43,496 nucleotides of DNA, taken from a virus. Lineage: Duplodnaviria > Heunggongvirae > Uroviricota > Caudoviricetes. Positions 26,360 through 31,738 of the stretch are shown here, in pieces; position 1 is the stretch's first letter; every line of letters starts with the position of its first letter. The stretch lies in IMG/VR virus record IMGVR_UViG_2740892274_000012; one strand, given 5' to 3'. The notes below the pieces were generated by a model. That model ran no database searches, was not told the origin of the DNA, and saw only the letters and a list, made by a program, of their open reading frames with translations. The position numbers and the translations under genes were made by a program.

Positions 26360-26902
26360 TCAAGCCATTTTCTCAGCAAATGATTCACGCATGGGAATAT
26401 ATAGGGCATACTCAGCAACAGCTAACCAATTAGCAATCCGTTTTTCGCATGTGCTAAAACACCACTCTGGGTGTGCATCATTTAGCAATTCAGCCATTTT
26501 GCGCTTAGTCATCCCCCGCCCTTCATAGCGTTGCCGGAGAATGCAAATCAATCCTGGATGCTCTGCCAGCACCTCACTTATGACTCGATCAATACATAAC
26601 GCCTCTGCATCAGTACAATGCGCCAGCCAGCTCTTTTGCTTGCCGTTGATCATCTCTCGCAAAAACGCTTCCAGCTCAGCTTTCTCTATTCCCGCTTTTT
26701 TCATTCTGCGCAGGGCTTCATTAATGGCTGTTTTCGTCAGTTTTTTGGATGCCAACAACTGATTGAACATATTCCCTGACCTGCCACCGCCAATATACGA
26801 CCAGCGCCCCCACATACGTAGTTTTCCCTGAATCCAGACACTTTCCAGCGTGGTGAGGCGAAGGTGTTCTCCGCTTTTTCCTGTATTCGTTGGGTAAATC
26901 AT
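26360..26902 (-). CDS. Putative late antiterminator Q
   Basis: 180-aa ORF directly upstream of the promoter/terminator pair and the lysis cassette; assignment mainly positional. Confidence 0.55.
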   Translation of the reverse strand: MIYPTNTGKSGEHLRLTTLESVWIQGKLRMWGRWSYIGGGRSGNMFNQLLASKKLTKTAINEALRRMKKAGIEKAELEAFLREMINGKQKSWLAHCTDAEALCIDRVISEVLAEHPGLICILRQRYEGRGMTKRKMAELLNDAHPEWCFSTCEKRIANWLAVAEYALYIPMRESFAEKMA

Positions 26903-27189
26903 AAATGACCTTTCTTTCTCCAGATTTCTTGTGTGCGAAAAACCCCTTCAGCATGCATCAGGCGCAATTCTTCTTTGGTGTAATCGCTGGTTTTTACCCG
27001 CCCGTCGATTAGATCGTGGCATGAGCTACAGGCTATCGCCGCCTGCATATCATGTGGTTTTGTCGCTGTTCCGCACGTCCCCGCCAGCCTGTAATGCGCC
27101 AGCACAGAGGTTTCGGGATTGTGATTGCAGTAGCCAGGGATTCTGATCTGGCACATCTGGCCTTTAGCCGCTTTACGTAAATTCACCAT
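26899..27189 (-). CDS. DUF1364-type (YbcO-like) nin-region protein, Cys/His-rich
   Basis: 96-aa ORF MVNLRKAAKGQMCQIRIPGYCNHNPETSVLAHYR... with C/H ligand pattern; overlaps the Q start. Confidence 0.55.
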   Translation of the reverse strand: MVNLRKAAKGQMCQIRIPGYCNHNPETSVLAHYRLAGTCGTATKPHDMQAAIACSSCHDLIDGRVKTSDYTKEELRLMHAEGVFRTQEIWRKKGHL

Positions 27190-27788
27190 TACGCAAACTC
27201 CAGTAGTTGTGCGGCCACATTTTCAACTTCCTCCTGAGAGGAGAATTTACGGAACAGAATCCAGTTCCACAGCACATTCAGTACAGATTTATAAACCTGC
27301 TGAAACTCGACTTCGTCCATATTCGCAAAAGCGATGGATTTTGCCCGACGCCCACGGCTACCGTCCGGATAAATATGCTCGGTGTAAAATCCGGCCTGAA
27401 TGGTTACCCACTCGCGGAAAGCCTCAAACGACTTTAGCAACGCCGTATCCCGGGTTCTACGAGTCGCAACGGTGTTAAGGTATTGCTCTGCGGCATCACT
27501 CAGGGCTGGCGTGTGTTCCCGACCAACTGATTCGCACAGGTAATCAACGAAACCAGACAGCAGTTCTCGTTCGCGAGGCGTGATCGCCCCACCGACCGGA
27601 GTCCAGTAATCGAATCCCAGTTGCAGGAGTTTGAAAAAACGCTTGTGGAATGCGTAGTTACGCACACGCTTAAAGTCTGCGTGTATCCACTCACCTATTT
27701 TGATTTGATGCAGAAAATCGCAACTCTCCGGCGTCGCCGGGAGAAGTAAACCAGAAGAGGTTTGTTTGACCAGTTGTATATGCGCCAT
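27189..27788 (-). CDS. DUF1367-type nin-region protein
   Basis: 199-aa ORF, stop overlapping the downstream start; conserved-looking lambdoid nin-region protein of unknown function. Confidence 0.55.
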   Translation of the reverse strand: MAHIQLVKQTSSGLLLPATPESCDFLHQIKIGEWIHADFKRVRNYAFHKRFFKLLQLGFDYWTPVGGAITPRERELLSGFVDYLCESVGREHTPALSDAAEQYLNTVATRRTRDTALLKSFEAFREWVTIQAGFYTEHIYPDGSRGRRAKSIAFANMDEVEFQQVYKSVLNVLWNWILFRKFSSQEEVENVAAQLLEFA

Positions 27789-28068
27789 TTCTCAATCTCT
27801 CGATGGCGCAGCGCAGCAGATGCCAGTTGTTCAGGCTGACGAATAAAGTATAAATAAACTGGCTATGGTGTAAAGCCCCACATAGCATGAACAAACACTA
27901 CATATCAAATAGCTGGTACAAGGATAGAAATACGACACTTATTATTAAAAACGATTAGATAAATTACATTTTAATGTTATGCAAAAGTTCTTTTTTATCA
28001 TAACATTTCAATAAAAGCATTACAGATGCAATCATCCCGTCATCATCAATTATTTAAGGTGGTTAAAC

Positions 28069-28155
28069 ATGGAAAATAACAAGTTCGCACATCTCGCTCC
28101 TTTTTTATCCGTAATCCTTTTCGCTTGTTGTTTTATATGGGCATTATTTTTATAA
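28069..28155 (+). CDS. 28-codon hydrophobic mini-ORF (candidate small membrane peptide)
   Basis: ATG 7 nt after TAAGGTGGT; MENNKFAHLAPFLSVILFACCFIWALFL; inside the AT-rich island; below the ORF-track size cutoff. Confidence 0.3.
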   Translation: MENNKFAHLAPFLSVILFACCFIWALFL

Positions 28156-28601
28156 AGTAGCCACATGATAAGTTGCTGGAATCATATTTCCCACTCAAGT
28201 CATTAACATTTGATAAGATATATCTAAAAGGACGCCTTTACATTATTTATGCGTATATAATTTATTTATATACACAGTAAAGGTATCCTGGGAAAATATT
28301 TATCGTTAAAAAATACATCATAAATAATTAAGCTGAAATTTCAGAACACAACTAATACACACAATAAGGTTCAGTAACAGTAATCTATGTGGACTACATC
28401 GAGATTTTTTGATTAAACTTTAATAACTTATTCCTAACACACAGAATGCATAAACTAAAAGTAAAACAAATAGTTATACGAAAAACAACCATATTTATTC
28501 TATCTTCTCCTCTAATCAACATATCAATTATGTGTTTCATAACAGCTTGACATAACCCTCCAAAAGATGCATTTTTAATGCATGTTTTGGAGGAGGTGGT
28601 T

Positions 28602-28940
28602 ATGACACACAAGAGAATTCCTAAAGATTGGGTAATCAAACGCTCAACTCCGTTCTTCACAAAAGAGAACGTACCTTCAGCGTTATTAACACATCATAAT
28701 ACAGCAGCAGGTGTTTTTGGGCAGTTGTGCGTAATGGAAGGCACTGTAACATATTATGGTTTTACTGATGAGAATGCTACTGAACCGGAGATAAAAGTAG
28801 TCATTAATGCTGGCGCTTTTGCAACAAGCCCACCACAATACTGGCACCGTGTTGAACTAAGCGATGATGCTCAGTTTAATATTAACTTTTGGGTCGCTCC
28901 AGACTTTTCGGGCGAAAAAGTCTATAGCACCAAAAAATAG
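28602..28940 (+). CDS. YeaR-like DUF1971 protein (accessory gene on the opposite strand)
   Basis: ATG preceded by GGAGGAGG; MTHKRIPKDWVIKRSTPFFTKENVPSALL...SPPQYWHRVELSDDAQFNINFWVAPDFSG parallels E. coli YeaR as I recall it. Confidence 0.7.
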   Translation: MTHKRIPKDWVIKRSTPFFTKENVPSALLTHHNTAAGVFGQLCVMEGTVTYYGFTDENATEPEIKVVINAGAFATSPPQYWHRVELSDDAQFNINFWVAPDFSGEKVYSTKK

Positions 28941-28970
28941 ATGATCATATTAAAAATGCTTTAACAGTCA

Positions 28971-29006
28971 GACCCGGCAGGGCTATCCCCGACGGGTCTC
29001 ATTTTT
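28971..29006 (+). terminator. Terminator-like hairpin after the yeaR-like gene
   Basis: GACCCG...CGGGUC stem with an inner GGG/CCC stem, followed by UCAUUUUUGU, about 30 nt after the stop. Confidence 0.4.
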
Positions 29007-29560
29007 GTAAATATATTGGTTCTACATTGACAGGAGACTTCAACCATAAGAAGTAATCTGAATACTTGAGCAATAAATTTACTTAAGATTAATGAGCGCA
29101 CCTTGCCGGACAAAGATAAACCAAGGTAACACCTTTTTTCTAGCCAGTATGTAATCAATCAGAAAGCCGCTCCATAAGAACAACAGCAAGACAATAAATT
29201 GCCATTACAGCCGCAATAGCCAGCGCACATTTGAGAACCAGCACGACAACCCCCTGTATTAGACGCACACCAGTCCTGATAAATATGAGGCTGTCTCGTC
29301 AGTGATTCAATACAACTATTGGGTATAGTTTCTGTGATTTTATTCTGTAGAAATGGAACACAACAACCAGTCACCACCAGCACTTCCTTAAATGCTCTAA
29401 GTCAGAAACAAGCCAACATTTTAGTCCGCTTTGAGCGATCTGCAGACATTGCTAGCAGCCTTCTGTGTGAATTCTCAGGGAGCAGGTCGGCATAGCATCA
29501 CGTTGAGGCTCTTACCCTACTTGTTCACACCAACCCTAACTCCACAGACTGATTCATAAA

Positions 29561-30562
29561 TTAGTAATCTGCGTGTTTCGCACTTTTCAGAAATGCTTTC
29601 ATATTTTCATTAGGTCGCTCAATTTCGAAGTTACTTCCATATAACTCTTGTAATTTTGGCCATAACTTACTTAATAACCCTCTCCTGCGATAAAATGGAT
29701 GTATCCAAACGGTAGATAGGTACGGAGAATTTGCATTTGAATTGTTTATTGTGACCAGCCCAACTAAACATTGTCGATAACCACTATTATCCATTGATTG
29801 TATTTCTTCGACGAATGGATACGCGATTACATCAGTCCAACCATGATCGGTTGTATCCCATTGCATTCCGTCATGACATTCCTTCGACTGATAGCGGCGT
29901 AAAGCTACACACGCGAGCTTTTGCCAATCTGGAGAATTAATTGTGATCTCTTCATCGTATGACGCGCCTATTGGAGCGGGTATTGGTCTGATTAATCCAG
30001 CATGGCATTCATCATAGAACTTCATGTTTCCCTCAGAAACGTTGTGTACGTTGGGTTGCTCCATGTGTGCGCCATTCAAAAATAGCTCTGATAGTAGTGT
30101 ATCTACACTGTAATCTTTATTGATTATTGTCGGCTTAGAGTTTTTCTTATTAAGGCCGCGAGTAACGATTTTTTGATCAATGTTAACAACATGGAATAAT
30201 CCGTCGGGGAGGCTAGCGAACCACGATGGGGCATCGGACCAGAATAGCATGCCTTTTGTACTTCTTAAGAGTTTAATTAAGTTAATACAAGCTTCTTCAC
30301 TAGTCTTGCCGTTGATGCGAAGTATGTTAGGACTAAAGTAATATTCATCCATATCAGGGAATGCAGCTTCGCAAAACTCCTGTACATAATTTAGCACCTG
30401 GATTCTACAGAGATCATCATAGCTGGTAATAACTAAGGGGGTATCTTCATTACTATTATGATTATCAATAATGCAATCTATAGCGAGACTTACTGCTTTG
30501 CGTATCACTTCAGTTGAATCTAACGACTCTAAAAATTTTGTCTTTCGTGTGCGAATATCCAT
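29561..30562 (-). CDS. Hypothetical protein (333 aa) with a C-terminal GNAT-like segment; downstream gene of the two-gene accessory operon
   Basis: ATG 15 nt after the upstream stop; C-terminal ...CLVGLVTINNSNANSPYLSTVWIHPFYRRRGLLSKLWPKLQELYG... resembles acetyltransferase motif A; AT-rich. Confidence 0.6.
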   Translation of the reverse strand: MDIRTRKTKFLESLDSTEVIRKAVSLAIDCIIDNHNSNEDTPLVITSYDDLCRIQVLNYVQEFCEAAFPDMDEYYFSPNILRINGKTSEEACINLIKLLRSTKGMLFWSDAPSWFASLPDGLFHVVNIDQKIVTRGLNKKNSKPTIINKDYSVDTLLSELFLNGAHMEQPNVHNVSEGNMKFYDECHAGLIRPIPAPIGASYDEEITINSPDWQKLACVALRRYQSKECHDGMQWDTTDHGWTDVIAYPFVEEIQSMDNSGYRQCLVGLVTINNSNANSPYLSTVWIHPFYRRRGLLSKLWPKLQELYGSNFEIERPNENMKAFLKSAKHADY

Positions 30563-30577
30563 GTATGACCTGCGCTA

Positions 30578-31600
30578 TTAAAATTCATGAATGAACGGTT
30601 TGTCATCTGGTTGCAAAATGGTGGTTTTATTCGTTGCTACATTTAAACTGTTGTAGAGCATAATTGCCAGGTTCGATGCATTTTCAATCAGCGTTTCAAG
30701 ATCCTGGTCTGTAATCACTACGAGGTTCCCTTCTTTATCCTTTCCACCACGATGCACTAAGTGATTTCGATTGAGGGTTGCCAATTCAATAGCTTCTATC
30801 GGACAGTCTTTTTGTACTTTTATATCGAATGTAGCTTCATAGCGGTCGATTACCTTTTTAGTGCTATGCCAGCTTGCACTGATCAAGTGTTCCTTGATTG
30901 ACCTGATTAGCTCTCCCCTAATTTTCTCGATGGGTTCACCCTTGAAAGGCAACGCAGCAATATCTTTGCTTACTTTAAATTCAGTCTTACCTTTTTCTAT
31001 ACAATTGGCTATGTAGACATCATCTTTCTCTATAGAATTAATGAATAGCTCAACATAAAGCGTTTCCAAAGCTGTAATAACATTCGTGTAGAGCAAACTA
31101 AGCAAGTGGTTTTTTTGCTGTTGTTCAGTTTTATCTTTTGCAAGTTTTTTTATTTTATCGATATTATCAATGAATTTTAAATACGGATTACCGGAAGACG
31201 TTACAGCGTCGTAGATATCATCATCGTACCAATCATCTATATTATTTGAGTTTCCAGACCAGTCAAAACATTGTGTTTGTAATTCATCTACTAATTCCTC
31301 AATATACTCAGATTTAACATATTGACCGAAGATGGATTGTAGTTCTTCGCTCGCATCATACGGCCCGCCATATATGTAAGCATAGCCACCTTCTCTACTT
31401 TCATACGGACAAGCATTTGCCGGATCTTCAAAGTTTTCAAAGAACCAGTTTTTCATTACTTCGAGTTGATCTTTTTTGCTTATGTATTTTAAAGATTTTA
31501 GTGGAACTTTCTTTCCATTAACCTCGAAAACAATTTTCACGATGTAACGCTCCCTTGTATCAATTGCGCAACTATTATACCACAGCGAAATACAGGGCAT
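30578..31600 (-). CDS. Hypothetical protein (340 aa) with an R-x4-H (RNHLVH) HEPN-like motif; upstream gene of the two-gene accessory operon
   Basis: ATG at 31600 preceded by AAGGAGG (6-nt spacer); acidic, D/E/K-rich; AT-rich. The ORF track extends 23 codons upstream without an SD. Confidence 0.6.
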   Translation of the reverse strand: MPCISLWYNSCAIDTRERYIVKIVFEVNGKKVPLKSLKYISKKDQLEVMKNWFFENFEDPANACPYESREGGYAYIYGGPYDASEELQSIFGQYVKSEYIEELVDELQTQCFDWSGNSNNIDDWYDDDIYDAVTSSGNPYLKFIDNIDKIKKLAKDKTEQQQKNHLLSLLYTNVITALETLYVELFINSIEKDDVYIANCIEKGKTEFKVSKDIAALPFKGEPIEKIRGELIRSIKEHLISASWHSTKKVIDRYEATFDIKVQKDCPIEAIELATLNRNHLVHRGGKDKEGNLVVITDQDLETLIENASNLAIMLYNSLNVATNKTTILQPDDKPFIHEF

Positions 31601-31738
31601 AACCTGCCTCCTTAAACTAACATACCATGAGCCAGCAATGTCCGCTATTGGCACAAAGCGGACAACCACGCTAGCTCTCCCCTGTGCCAGAAAAATGTCA
31701 ATTTACATATGAACTAATGCTCTTTGATCTAGTAACGT

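What the first reader, a model, noticed from the sequence alone, without database searches (positions are those of the whole stretch)
27789..29006. Opposite-strand yeaR-like moron in a ~0.8 kb AT-rich island, with a 28-codon hydrophobic mini-ORF upstream
Between the nin-type genes and the two-gene operon lies a very AT-rich, ORF-poor stretch followed by a plus-strand gene, opposite to all surrounding phage genes. That gene has a strong SD, a YeaR/DUF1971-like product and a terminator-like hairpin. Within the AT-rich leader a 28-codon ORF (MENNKFAHLAPFLSVILFACCFIWALFL) sits 7 nt after TAAGGTGGT; its size, hydrophobic tail and SD resemble small membrane toxins of type I toxin-antitoxin loci, though it may be a leader peptide or chance ORF. 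The AT-rich upstream region is the kind typically bound by H-NS.
Basis: partly seen in the sequence, partly recalled or inferred. Interest (0 to 1): 0.45.

Follow-up and report, generated by a model that had tools for sequence, protein, structure and literature searches.

The report
Unannotated small membrane gene plus NO-regulated moron
The AT-rich gap in this E. coli prophage holds two separate opposite-strand gene cassettes: a never-annotated 28-codon membrane-peptide gene that is under purifying selection and present in about a fifth of complete E. coli genomes, and a yeaR-like gene whose promoter carries a near-perfect binding site for the nitric-oxide sensor NsrR.

Summary
**Observation.** It is real. 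GC falls to 25-31% at 27900-28500. The plus-strand gene 28602-28940 is DUF1971/YeaR (Pfam E=2e-26, 41% identical to K-12 YeaR). It has a strong SD and a terminator hairpin.

**The 28-codon ORF (28069-28155) is a gene, not chance and not a leader peptide.**
- All 159 copies found (23 DNA haplotypes) keep the start, the stop and the length.
- dN/dS between lineages is 0.05-0.25, and the antisense ORF is broken in relatives.
- Homology between lineages starts at a 47-nt near-invariant promoter-like block and ends at the stop codon.
- About 720 of roughly 1170 E. coli genomes carry it without the DUF1971 gene, next to hokD, IteAS or NACHT genes.
- It is not annotated in any RefSeq record listed, and it is absent from a collection of 15 billion proteins.

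**Type I toxin reading.** Not supported, though not excluded. There is no conserved antisense promoter, no structured 5' UTR and no family match.

**New for DUF1971.** Its promoter overlaps AAGATGCATTTTTAATGCATGTT, which has 2 mismatches to the NsrR 11-1-11 consensus and no match in 100 shuffles. It is therefore probably repressed by NsrR and induced by NO, like chromosomal yeaR.

**Verdict.** Two morons at a variable prophage slot: a new small-protein family and a new regulatory prediction. Moderate interest.

The parts
27939..27985 (+). Near-invariant 47-nt block upstream of the mini-ORF. It is the candidate sigma-70 promoter: -35 TTATTA at 27942-27947, a 17-nt spacer, and -10 TACATT at 27965-27970. 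It also contains TAGATAAATT, which resembles an H-NS nucleation motif (recalled from memory).
   Evidence: 37 of 47 columns are invariant across 53 unique haplotypes. The flanks have 6/69 and 9/47 invariant columns. In the divergent context L046, homology begins at this block. The hexamers match only 7 of 12 positions, so the promoter assignment is an inference.
27973..28007 (+). Conserved inverted repeat AATGTTATG ... CATAACATT. It is the predicted 5'-terminal stem-loop of the mini-ORF mRNA.
   Evidence: Found as repeat I4. It is the main helix (8 of the 18 predicted pairs) that RNAalifold predicts across 21 unique sequences. The changes seen are wobble-compatible: C to U opposite G, and A to G opposite U.
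28056..28062 (+). Shine-Dalgarno sequence of the mini-ORF (AAGGTGG).
   Evidence: Read from the sequence. It is AAGGTG in clade 1, L002, L003 and L007. It is weaker in other lineages: AAAGTG, AAAGCG or AAGGTA.
28069..28155 (+). 'mini28', a 28-codon gene encoding MENNKFAHLAPFLSVILFACCFIWALFL. It has a polar 8-residue N-terminus followed by a 20-residue hydrophobic helix that runs to the C-terminus.
   Evidence: 159 copies in 23 haplotypes are all intact at 28 codons. dN/dS is 0.05-0.25, and window vs L046 shows 10 synonymous against 5 non-synonymous changes, p=1e-4. The antisense frame carries stops in relatives. Mean Kyte-Doolittle hydropathy is -1.4 for residues 1-8 and +2.5 for residues 9-28. 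The gene is not annotated and is not in a 15-billion protein collection.
28226..28289 (-). Strong intrinsic terminator for minus-strand (phage early direction) transcription: a long hairpin followed by UUUU on the minus strand. It shields mini28 from convergent transcription.
   Evidence: The fold is -25.7 kcal/mol with z=-6.1, and 0 of 200 shuffles fold as well. It was found as inverted repeats I2 and I13. The stem becomes perfect in L004 and L005 through changes on both sides. In other contexts a different strong minus-strand terminator, from hok or iteS, sits right after the mini28 stop.
28547..28579 (+). DUF1971 promoter region. The -35 is TTGACA at 28547-28552. The -10 is either CATTTT at 28570-28575 (17-nt spacer) or TTTAAT at 28574-28579. 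Both -10 options lie inside the NsrR site.
   Evidence: Read from the sequence. TTGACA is invariant in all 13 prophage upstream variants (K-12 yeaR excluded), and most variants have a perfect TATAAT at the centre of the palindrome. The choice of -10 is an inference.
28564..28586 (+). Predicted NsrR operator, AAGATGCATTT-T-TAATGCATGTT, an 11-1-11 inverted repeat.
   Evidence: It has 2 mismatches to AAGATGCATTTNAAATGCATCTT. It is the only match in the 43.5-kb window, and 0 of 100 shuffles gave any match. The ytfE site is AAGATGCATTTAAAATGCATCTT, and yeaR is a known NsrR target (PMC5320621). K-12 yeaR carries a related site at the same relative position.
28531..28611 (+). Extended palindrome and hairpin that would pair the SD (GGAGG) and the AUG with upstream CCTCC and CATAAC. 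This would happen in any transcript that starts upstream of the promoter.
   Evidence: The fold is -26.5 kcal/mol with z=-5.75, and 0 of 200 shuffles fold as well. It was found as inverted repeats I3 (17 nt, 94% complementary) and I8 (13 nt, 92% complementary). Paired changes in the outer arms occur among strains.
28602..28940 (+). DUF1971 / YeaR-like gene of 112 aa.
28970..29007 (+). Terminator-like hairpin (AGACCCG...CGGGTCT) plus T-run downstream of the DUF1971 gene.
   Evidence: The fold is -17.1 kcal/mol. The hairpin is kept, with sequence changes, in L005.

Best explanation
The interval contains two independent 'morons': self-contained cassettes transcribed against the phage early/late direction. 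They sit in a recombination-prone slot of a Rac/Qin-type lambdoid prophage, between the DUF1367-DUF1364-Q-like genes and a variable, defence-like cargo.

**(1) mini28 (about 27939-28160).**
- Shown: it is a real protein-coding gene. A conserved promoter-like block, a 5' stem-loop, an SD and a 28-codon ORF are followed, in every genomic context, by a hairpin and terminator.
- Inferred: the product is a 28-aa tail-anchored single-pass inner-membrane peptide, with a conserved cytoplasmic MENN(K/N)xAH head and a 20-residue helix carrying an invariant Cys and Trp.
- Inferred: it is made in the lysogen and acts by binding a membrane protein of the host or of an incoming phage, as small membrane modulators do. 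I estimate about 0.45 for this class. I rank it above a classical type I toxin (about 0.25), because nothing resembling an antitoxin RNA gene is conserved with it.

**(2) The DUF1971 gene.**
- Shown: it is a prophage-borne paralogue of chromosomal yeaR.
- Shown: a near-consensus NsrR 11-1-11 site overlaps its -10 region.
- Inferred (about 0.75): NsrR represses the gene, and nitric oxide or nitrosative stress de-represses it.
- Inferred: the larger palindrome around the operator sequesters the SD and AUG, so transcripts reading in from upstream would stay untranslated.

**(3) The minus-strand terminator at 28226-28289.** Inferred: it insulates mini28 from early-operon read-through. This is analogous to the nin-region terminators upstream of Q in lambda (established lambdoid biology).
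For: **mini28 is coding.**
- It is intact in 88 of the 89 sequences then held (87 loci plus the window; the exception, L008, was a partial match with no recognisable ORF) and in 159 of 159 copies once metagenome loci are included.
- There are 23 haplotypes and 18 protein variants, all of 28 aa.
- Variable sites by codon position are 6/9/18, chi-square p=0.03.
- dN/dS is 0.05-0.25, with binomial p from 1e-4 to 1e-2.
- The antisense ORF is interrupted in clade 2 and in L005.

**mini28 is an independent cassette.**
- In 366 genomes the match to the 1312-nt query covers roughly 27789-28156 (query 1-368 or 1-383 in the rows listed), ending at or within about 15 nt of the mini-ORF stop, at about 77% identity.
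- Downstream partners differ: iteS, hokD, NACHT or DUF1971.
- In L046 homology begins at the promoter block.
- K-12 Qin has rem in its place.
- The conservation profile is promoter block 37/47 and ORF 53/87 invariant columns, against 4-9 per 47-69 columns in the flanks.

**Prevalence.** 1170 of 5426 complete E. coli genomes carry it, with no feature annotated under it in any of the 30 records listed.

**DUF1971.**

**NsrR site.** See for the match. PMC5320621 gives the 11-1-11 motif, the ytfE site and yeaR as an NsrR target. The K-12 yeaR promoter has a related site. The site persists, with variation, in all 13 prophage upstream variants.

**Structures.**
Against: - There are no expression or translation data for either gene.
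- The mini28 promoter hexamers are weak (7 of 12), and the consensus scan did not call a plus-strand promoter there.
- The family is confined to Escherichia/Shigella and is shallow, with three main lineages, so the selection statistics rest on few independent substitutions.
- Nothing identifies a membrane partner. The 'modulator' function is an argument by exclusion and analogy.
- For DUF1971, the -35 TTGACA is 21 nt from the best -10, so the exact promoter geometry is unclear.
- The commonest operator variant (AACACGCATTT half-site) is less consensus-like than the window's.
- The palindrome-preserving double changes could come from template-switch (quasipalindrome) mutation rather than from selection.
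Confidence: 0.65

Rival explanations
1. mini28 is the toxin of a type I toxin-antitoxin locus. A small hydrophobic peptide would depolarise the inner membrane, held in check by a cis-antisense RNA. It would serve prophage maintenance or abortive infection.
For: - Its size and hydrophobic helix fit.
- No protein partner gene travels with it.
- It lies convergent to, and within about 105 nt of, hokD in most clade-2 loci, and near a second small hydrophobic ORF.
- It is retained intact in decaying prophages where hokD or rrrD is broken by IS elements.
- A weak antisense promoter-like site, TTATCA-17-AATAAT, lies at 28171..28143, and GATAA recurs in clade 2.
Against: - Homology between lineages ends at the stop codon. 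A downstream antisense promoter is therefore not conserved as sequence.
- The -10-like AATAAT/TATAAA is forced by the codons for LFL-stop.
- No internal antisense promoter is shared by the clades.
- No minus-strand terminator lies upstream of the ORF.
- The mRNA is not unusually structured (z=0.18). The SD is paired only by a weak six-pair helix with G-U pairs in the minimum-energy fold, and that helix is absent from the centroid. The only substantial conserved helix is the 5' stem-loop.
- There is no match to Hok, Ldr, Ibs, ShoB, TisB or other families in Pfam, NCBIfam, PHROGs, PADLOC or Rfam.
- The strongly conserved polar head MENNxxAH suggests a specific interaction rather than generic membrane damage.
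Confidence: 0.25
2. The conserved unit is an RNA or a DNA regulatory element. One example is a transcript that interferes with early-operon read-through towards the Q-like gene. The ORF would be incidental, or would be translated only to stabilise the RNA.
For: - The cassette faces the early operon and lies just upstream of DUF1367-DUF1364-Q.
- A conserved divergent promoter-like pair exists: the 27874..27847 minus-strand site and the 27942-27970 plus-strand site.
- The last 18 nt of the ORF are invariant even at synonymous sites in all but one of the 13 haplotypes from the first 89 sequences (L002).
Against: - Third-position excess of variable sites and dN/dS well below 1.
- Amino-acid replacements are conservative.
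- The reading frame and length are kept in every copy.
- The 5' UTR, which an RNA function would be expected to constrain, is the least conserved part.
- No Rfam family matches.
Confidence: 0.07
3. mini28 is a leader peptide or upstream ORF that controls the DUF1971 gene.
For: It has the same strand and lies 446 nt upstream of the DUF1971 start in the window.
Against: - About 720 of 1170 carrier genomes have mini28 without DUF1971.
- L004 keeps mini28 and the AT-rich spacer but has a NACHT gene in place of DUF1971.
- DUF1971 has its own -35 and operator.
- Strong hairpins lie between the two genes.
Confidence: 0.02

Closest known systems
YeaR (b1797) of E. coli K-12, first gene of the NsrR/NarL-regulated yeaR-yoaG operon (DUF1971, PDB 3BB6)
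   Same: - It has the same Pfam domain over its full length and 41% identity.
- An NsrR-type 11-1-11 palindrome lies over the -10 region of the promoter in both.
- yeaR is a documented NsrR target and is strongly nitrate/NO-induced (PMC5320621).
   Different: - The window gene is prophage-borne, monocistronic and followed at once by a terminator. There is no yoaG (DUF1869) partner.
- Its operator is closer to consensus than that of yeaR.
- It is embedded in a longer palindrome that can occlude the SD and AUG.
- It is much closer in sequence to PDB 3DL3 (E=3.5e-59), deposited as 'tellurite resistance protein B', than to YeaR.
- The biochemical function of the family is unknown.
Type I toxins with a polar head and a hydrophobic C-terminus, such as ShoB (26 aa) and Ibs (19 aa), and the neighbouring Hok family
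   Same: - It has a similar length, a single hydrophobic helix and no protein partner.
- It sits in a prophage or accessory location.
- In relatives it lies beside hokD.
   Different: - There is no sequence or profile similarity.
- No conserved antitoxin RNA gene, no long structured 5' UTR and no SD-sequestering fold were found.
- Toxicity is untested.
- The comparison with the ShoB and Ibs sequences is from memory.
Small membrane-protein modulators and prophage exclusion peptides: MgtS, AcrZ, PmrR; Qin DicB acting on ManYZ; Pf phage PfsE acting on PilC
   Same: - The size class is 30 aa or less, with a single-pass helix.
- It has a conserved short soluble head and an aromatic/Cys motif in the helix.
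- It is encoded by a prophage as a stand-alone cassette.
   Different: The link is purely functional analogy, and these examples are from my own knowledge. There is no homology, and no partner has been identified here.
Morons of lambdoid phages (Hendrix-type: own promoter and terminator, inserted between phage genes, e.g. lambda bor and lom)
   Same: - It has an independent promoter-like element and a terminator.
- Its orientation opposes the flanking phage genes.
- GC content is aberrant and low.
- It shows a presence/absence and replacement polymorphism among otherwise collinear prophages.
   Different: - mini28 is far smaller than the described morons.
- It has never been annotated.

Membership tests
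DUF1971 / YeaR family (PF09313) | Profile HMM match above the curated threshold over the whole domain | tested here: met
   The score is 92 bits against a cutoff of 23.1, E=2.3e-26, covering profile positions 1-80 of 80. PHROG 34268 matches at E=1.5e-78.
DUF1971 / YeaR family (PF09313) | Sequence relationship to the solved DUF1971 structures | tested here: met
   PDB matches are 3dl3 at E=3.5e-59, 3bb6 (YeaR) at 1.6e-24, and 3m70 (N-terminal domain of a TehB homologue) at 5.4e-11.
yeaR-yoaG type operon | A downstream yoaG (DUF1869) gene in the same transcription unit | tested here: not met
   No ORF of at least 20 aa starts on the plus strand between the stop at 28940 and the terminator hairpin at 28970-28999; the only plus-strand ORF touching this gap is a 26-aa out-of-frame ORF (28864-28944).
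NsrR regulon | An 11-1-11 inverted repeat matching AAGATGCATTT-N-AAATGCATCTT in the promoter region | tested here: met
   The site at 28564-28586 has 2 mismatches, is unique in the window, and 0 of 100 shuffles gave a match. The motif is described in PMC5320621.
NsrR regulon | NsrR binding, and NO-dependent or nsrR-dependent de-repression | not testable with these tools
   This needs EMSA or ChIP, and reporter fusions in an nsrR mutant or with NO donors.
Type I toxin-antitoxin system | A small hydrophobic toxin ORF | tested here: met
   The product is 28 aa, and residues 9-28 have a mean Kyte-Doolittle hydropathy of +2.5.
Type I toxin-antitoxin system | A cognate antisense or divergent sRNA gene, with its own promoter and terminator, conserved with the toxin | tested here: inconclusive
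   The only candidate is a weak 9-of-12 antisense promoter-like site whose -10 is forced by the coding sequence. Its -35 region is not homologous between clades, and no minus-strand terminator lies upstream. No RNA data are available.
Type I toxin-antitoxin system | Membership of a described toxin or antitoxin family (Hok/Sok, Ldr/Rdl, Ibs/Sib, ShoB/OhsC, TisB/IstR, DinQ/AgrB, Zor/Orz) | tested here: not met
   There are no hits in Pfam, NCBIfam, PHROGs (best E=0.24, spurious) or PADLOC. There is no Rfam hit at or below E=5 that is credible.
Type I toxin-antitoxin system | Toxicity of the peptide and its neutralisation by the RNA | not testable with these tools
   This needs overexpression and antisense co-expression experiments.
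Leader peptide / uORF of the downstream gene | Obligate linkage to the regulated gene | tested here: not met
   The module is in 1170 genomes, but DUF1971 is linked to it in about 450. Alternative neighbours are shown.
Moron (independent lysogen-expressed cassette in a phage genome) | Own promoter and terminator, atypical composition, and presence/absence polymorphism among collinear phages | tested here: met
   These features are shown by the composition, the conserved promoter-like block and hairpins in every context, and replacement by rem in K-12. Promoter activity itself was not tested.

The most novel reading that the evidence does not exclude
mini28, possibly together with the second unannotated 29-codon hydrophobic gene at 29155-29241, may be a new family of prophage membrane effectors. 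This could be either a previously unrecognised toxin that triggers abortive infection, or a superinfection-exclusion peptide that blocks an inner-membrane DNA-entry or transport protein. In that case these small genes, next to hok, would form the conserved border of a defence-cargo exchange slot that is present in a fifth to a third of E. coli genomes.
Probability: 0.3. Interest if true: 0.65.

Novelty: new member of a known kind. Interest (0 to 1): 0.5.

Why it matters
**mini28.** It is a well-supported protein-coding gene that automated annotation has missed in every record examined. It lies below the 90-nt gene-caller limit and is absent from a collection of 15 billion predicted proteins. 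Yet about 22% of complete E. coli genomes, and inducible phages, carry it at the edge of a slot that exchanges anti-phage systems (IteAS, NACHT and others) and hok. It is a concrete, testable candidate for a new small membrane protein with a role in the lysogen.

**NsrR operator on the yeaR paralogue.** It predicts that a host-immunity signal, nitric oxide, switches on a phage-borne accessory gene. That would extend the NsrR regulon into the mobile genome. It would also give a second, portable handle on the still unknown function of the DUF1971 family.

Tried and rejected
- **Leader peptide or chance ORF.** Rejected by distribution and by selection.
- **Antisense 38-aa ORF (28050-28166, minus strand) as the real gene.** Rejected: it has stop codons in clade 2 and in L005. 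It shares third codon positions with mini28, so the codon-position test alone could not separate the two.
- **Known RNA family.** No Rfam hit is credible.
- **Structured toxin-type mRNA.** The fold has z=0.18. The 5' stem-loop is the only substantial helix in the alifold consensus (-8.0 kcal/mol). One fold_alignment run used wrong coordinates for two loci and was discarded.
- **Operator shared with the prophage immunity region.** No 13-mer of the promoter block recurs elsewhere in the window beyond AT-rich near-matches.
- **A minus-strand sRNA from the promoter-like site 28344..28317 to the 28289-28229 terminator.** Dropped, because the promoter segment is replaced in L004 and L005.
- **A hok remnant in the window.** None found by tblastn.
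- **The 29-codon module as a remnant of the DUF977 gene.** Rejected. In BL21/C41(DE3), a deletion fuses DUF977 to the module in another frame.
- **Deeper homologues.** Scans of genome, viral and metagenome collections returned only Escherichia/Shigella-type copies, plus one spurious hit. Only two records in the plasmid collection matched, both chromosome-sized (4.8-4.9 Mb).
- **Literature.** No paper contains the peptide. Nothing was found on prophage DUF1971. Lin et al. 2007 on the yeaR promoter is not held.
- **PADLOC.** No credible hit for the neighbouring two-gene cargo; the 363-aa protein gave only weak hits (best E=0.011).
Full report
**Setting**

The window is a complete lambdoid prophage of E. 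coli. The query interval is 100% identical to several E. coli chromosomes. Apart from DUF1971, every ORF of 90 aa or more between 20395 and 37139 without a larger minus-strand ORF overlapping it reads on the minus strand.

To the left of the finding lie three minus-strand genes:
- DUF1367, at 27189-27788.
- DUF1364/YbcO, at 26899-27189.
- A DUF1133/Q-like antiterminator gene, at 26360-26902.

To the right lies a two-gene minus-strand operon, 29561-30562 and 30578-31669. It has weak, sub-threshold GNAT and HEPN_RES_NTD1 matches. A DUF977-type gene follows it.

**Checking the observation**

GC falls to 25-31% across 27900-28500, against 46-55% over 27000-27899.

The plus-strand gene 28602-28940 is a DUF1971 protein:
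- Pfam gives E=2.3e-26, above the curated cutoff.
- It is 41% identical to K-12 YeaR.
- It matches PDB 3dl3 at E=3.5e-59 and 3bb6 (YeaR) at 1.6e-24.
- RefSeq annotates the same 112-aa protein.

It has the SD GGAGGAGGTGG. A -17 kcal/mol hairpin followed by a T-run lies 30 nt after the stop.

The 28-codon ORF is at 28069-28155, with AAGGTGG 6 nt upstream. The description is therefore accurate apart from small details of spacing and island length.

**The mini-ORF is a gene**

Megablast of the interval gave the first clue. In 366 genomes the match covers roughly window 27789-28156 (query 1-368 or 1-383 in the rows listed) at about 77% identity. It ends at or within about 15 nt of the mini-ORF stop codon. 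In these genomes the downstream neighbour varies:
- iteS/iteA, an anti-phage system.
- hokD.
- A NACHT NTPase gene.
- DUF1971 followed by hok.

In K-12 Qin the same position, between ydfU and hokD, is occupied by rem instead.

I collected copies from three sources:
- Species-representative genomes: 3 loci.
- IMG/VR: 80 loci.
- Metagenomes: 72 loci.

Apart from two non-ORF hits (the partial match L008 and one spurious pattern hit), every copy is an intact 28-codon ORF: 159 copies, 23 DNA haplotypes and 18 peptide variants.

The selection signals are these:
- Variable sites fall 6/9/18 on codon positions 1/2/3 (p=0.03).
- Nei-Gojobori dN/dS between the three lineages is 0.05-0.25. For example, window vs L046 shows 10 synonymous and 5 non-synonymous changes, binomial p=1e-4.

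The antisense 38-aa ORF shares third codon positions with mini28, so it needed a separate test. It carries stop codons in clade 2 and in L005.

Conservation across 53 unique extended haplotypes shows a cassette:
- A 47-nt block at 27939-27985 has 37 invariant columns.
- The 5' UTR has only 9 of 47 invariant columns.
- The ORF has 53 of 87.
- The 60 nt after the stop have 4 of 60.

In the most divergent context (L046), homology begins at that block. In every context a hairpin follows the stop within 10-25 nt, although the hairpins are not homologous to one another.

The block can be read as a promoter, TTATTA-17-TACATT. It is weak, matching 7 of 12 positions, so this is an inference. It is followed by a conserved stem, AATGTTATG/CATAACATT. 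That stem is the main helix RNAalifold finds (8 of the 18 predicted pairs), and its changes are wobble-compatible.

The peptide has three features:
- A polar, highly conserved head, MENN(K/N)xAH.
- A 20-residue hydrophobic segment that runs to the C-terminus.
- An invariant P11, C21 and W24 within the five-variant alignment; these also hold across the 18 variants listed.

The module is present in 1170 of 5426 complete E. coli genomes, with no annotated feature in any of the 30 records listed. It also occurs in four records of the phage collection (vB_EcoS-type Escherichia phages). Three of the peptide variants were looked up, and none is among 15 billion predicted proteins. No paper contains the peptide.

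**What mini28 is not, and what it may be**

It is not a leader peptide. About 60% of carrier genomes lack DUF1971 at that place. DUF1971 also has its own promoter and operator.

The type I toxin reading is possible but lacks its defining second component:
- Sequence homology between lineages stops at the stop codon, so a downstream antisense promoter is not conserved.
- The -10-like AATAAT/TATAAA on the minus strand is dictated by the codons for LFL-stop.
- No internal antisense promoter is shared between clades.
- No minus-strand terminator lies upstream of the ORF.
- The mRNA is not unusually structured (z=0.18), and the SD is paired only weakly in the minimum-energy fold and not in the centroid.
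- No toxin, antitoxin or defence profile matches.

The conserved polar head argues for a specific contact. I therefore favour a lysogen-expressed, tail-anchored membrane peptide that acts on a membrane protein (about 0.45). A type I toxin comes second (about 0.25). Both remain inferences.

**The DUF1971 cassette**

The sequence AAGATGCATTTTTAATGCATGTT lies at 28564-28586, directly upstream of the SD.
- It differs at two positions from the NsrR 11-1-11 consensus.
- It is the only such match in 43.5 kb, and none occurred in 100 shuffles.

PMC5320621 supplies the background:
- It documents the 11-1-11 motif.
- It lists the ytfE site as AAGATGCATTTAAAATGCATCTT.
- It states that yeaR is regulated by NsrR and is among the most nitrate-induced genes.

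The K-12 yeaR promoter carries a related palindrome around its -10.

In the window, an invariant TTGACA lies at 28547-28552. Both candidate -10 hexamers, CATTTT at 17 nt and TTTAAT at 21 nt, lie inside the operator. Most strain variants have a perfect TATAAT at the palindrome centre. Repression by NsrR and induction by NO is therefore the expected behaviour. I put this at about 0.75; it is not tested.

The operator sits within a larger inverted repeat, 28531-28611. As RNA this folds at -26.5 kcal/mol (z=-5.75) and pairs the SD and the AUG. A transcript started at the native promoter would lack the left arm. Transcripts entering from upstream would be translationally silent (inference).

Among otherwise 97-100% identical loci, this operator region is the most variable stretch. 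It shows paired changes that keep the palindrome. That pattern is compatible with selection on pairing, or with template-switch mutation in a quasipalindrome.

**The spacer**

Between the two cassettes lies a 61-nt hairpin at 28229-28289. It is followed by UUUU on the minus strand, at -25.7 kcal/mol and z=-6.1. It is a strong intrinsic terminator for the early-operon direction.

In other contexts the hok or iteS terminator occupies the same position relative to mini28. So mini28 is always shielded from convergent transcription.

A strong sigma-70-like promoter on the minus strand, TTTACA-16-TATACT at 27874..27847, is conserved upstream of DUF1367.

**Comparison with what is known, and novelty**

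The DUF1971 gene is an annotated member of a known family. Its predicted NsrR control appears to be unreported.

mini28 belongs to a known kind, the small hydrophobic proteins and morons, but it is a new and unannotated family. H-NS binding is plausible from composition and from a TAGATAAATT motif recalled from memory, but it is untested.

Overall interest is moderate. The anatomy and the selection evidence are solid, but the function is open.

Noticed in passing
window 29155-29241 (minus strand); module about 29140-29440: A second small hydrophobic gene with no feature annotated under it in any of the RefSeq records listed: GTG start, 29 codons, MLVLKCALAIAAVMAIYCLAVVLMERLSD. Its candidate promoter is TTGAAT-17-CATATT, and relatives have the SD AGGAGG. 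A divergent lineage differs from the window by 8 synonymous and 3 conservative changes. That lineage keeps the promoter hexamers and the SD while the spacer diverges. The module is present in 1692-1950 of 5426 E. coli genomes, with no RefSeq feature in any of the 30 records listed. GenBank submitters have occasionally called it 'putative membrane protein'. In relatives it lies about 200-290 nt upstream of hok on the same strand. Two haplotypes carry a 2-nt deletion.
   Followed up: partly
window 28226-28289 (minus strand): A very stable hairpin (-25.7 kcal/mol, z=-6.1) followed by UUUU on the minus strand. It is a likely intrinsic terminator of the phage early operon, upstream of the Q-like gene, comparable in position to the lambda nin-region terminators.
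   Followed up: partly
window 27847-27874 (minus strand): A strong sigma-70-like promoter, TTTACA-16-TATACT (10 of 12), immediately upstream of the DUF1367-DUF1364-Q-like genes. It is conserved in both lineages and is divergent from the mini28 promoter block. It would drive the antiterminator gene independently of the early promoter unless it is repressed.
   Followed up: no
window 28531-28611; variants in L010, L022, L024, L027, L028, L031-L035, L039, L042, L043: The NsrR-operator palindrome is the most variable stretch among otherwise 97-100% identical DUF1971 loci. It shows paired changes that preserve complementarity: CCTCC...GGAGG vs CCTCA...TGAGG vs CCATC...GATG. This could reflect quasipalindrome template-switch mutation, or selection for an SD/AUG-sequestering hairpin.
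   Followed up: partly
window 29561-31669 (minus strand); L001 7768-10770; L002 3417-6363; L004 4059-6316; L065 3627-6059: The slot between the DUF977 gene and the 29-codon module carries different cargo in otherwise collinear prophages. In the window it holds a 333-aa protein (weak, sub-threshold GNAT match) plus a 363-aa protein (weak, sub-threshold HEPN_RES_NTD1 match), with no credible PADLOC hit (best E=0.011). Elsewhere it holds IteAS, a NACHT NTPase, three hypothetical genes, or an 810-aa SEC-C-motif protein. It looks like a defence hotspot of Rac/Qin-type prophages.
   Followed up: partly
L163 (E. coli C41(DE3)) 2501-2921; L089 (K-12 Qin) 2102-2533: In BL21/C41(DE3), a deletion fuses DUF977 codon ~99 to the 29-codon module in another frame, giving the annotated 119-aa 'DUF977 family protein'. 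In K-12, rem occupies the place of the mini28 cassette between ydfU and hokD.
   Followed up: yes
L046 (IMGVR_UViG_2547132270_000010) 779-865: The most divergent mini28 copy lies in an unrelated context, next to a 601-aa minus-strand ORF. Homology to the other loci is limited to the promoter block through to the stop codon, which supports the idea that the cassette moves as a unit.
   Followed up: partly
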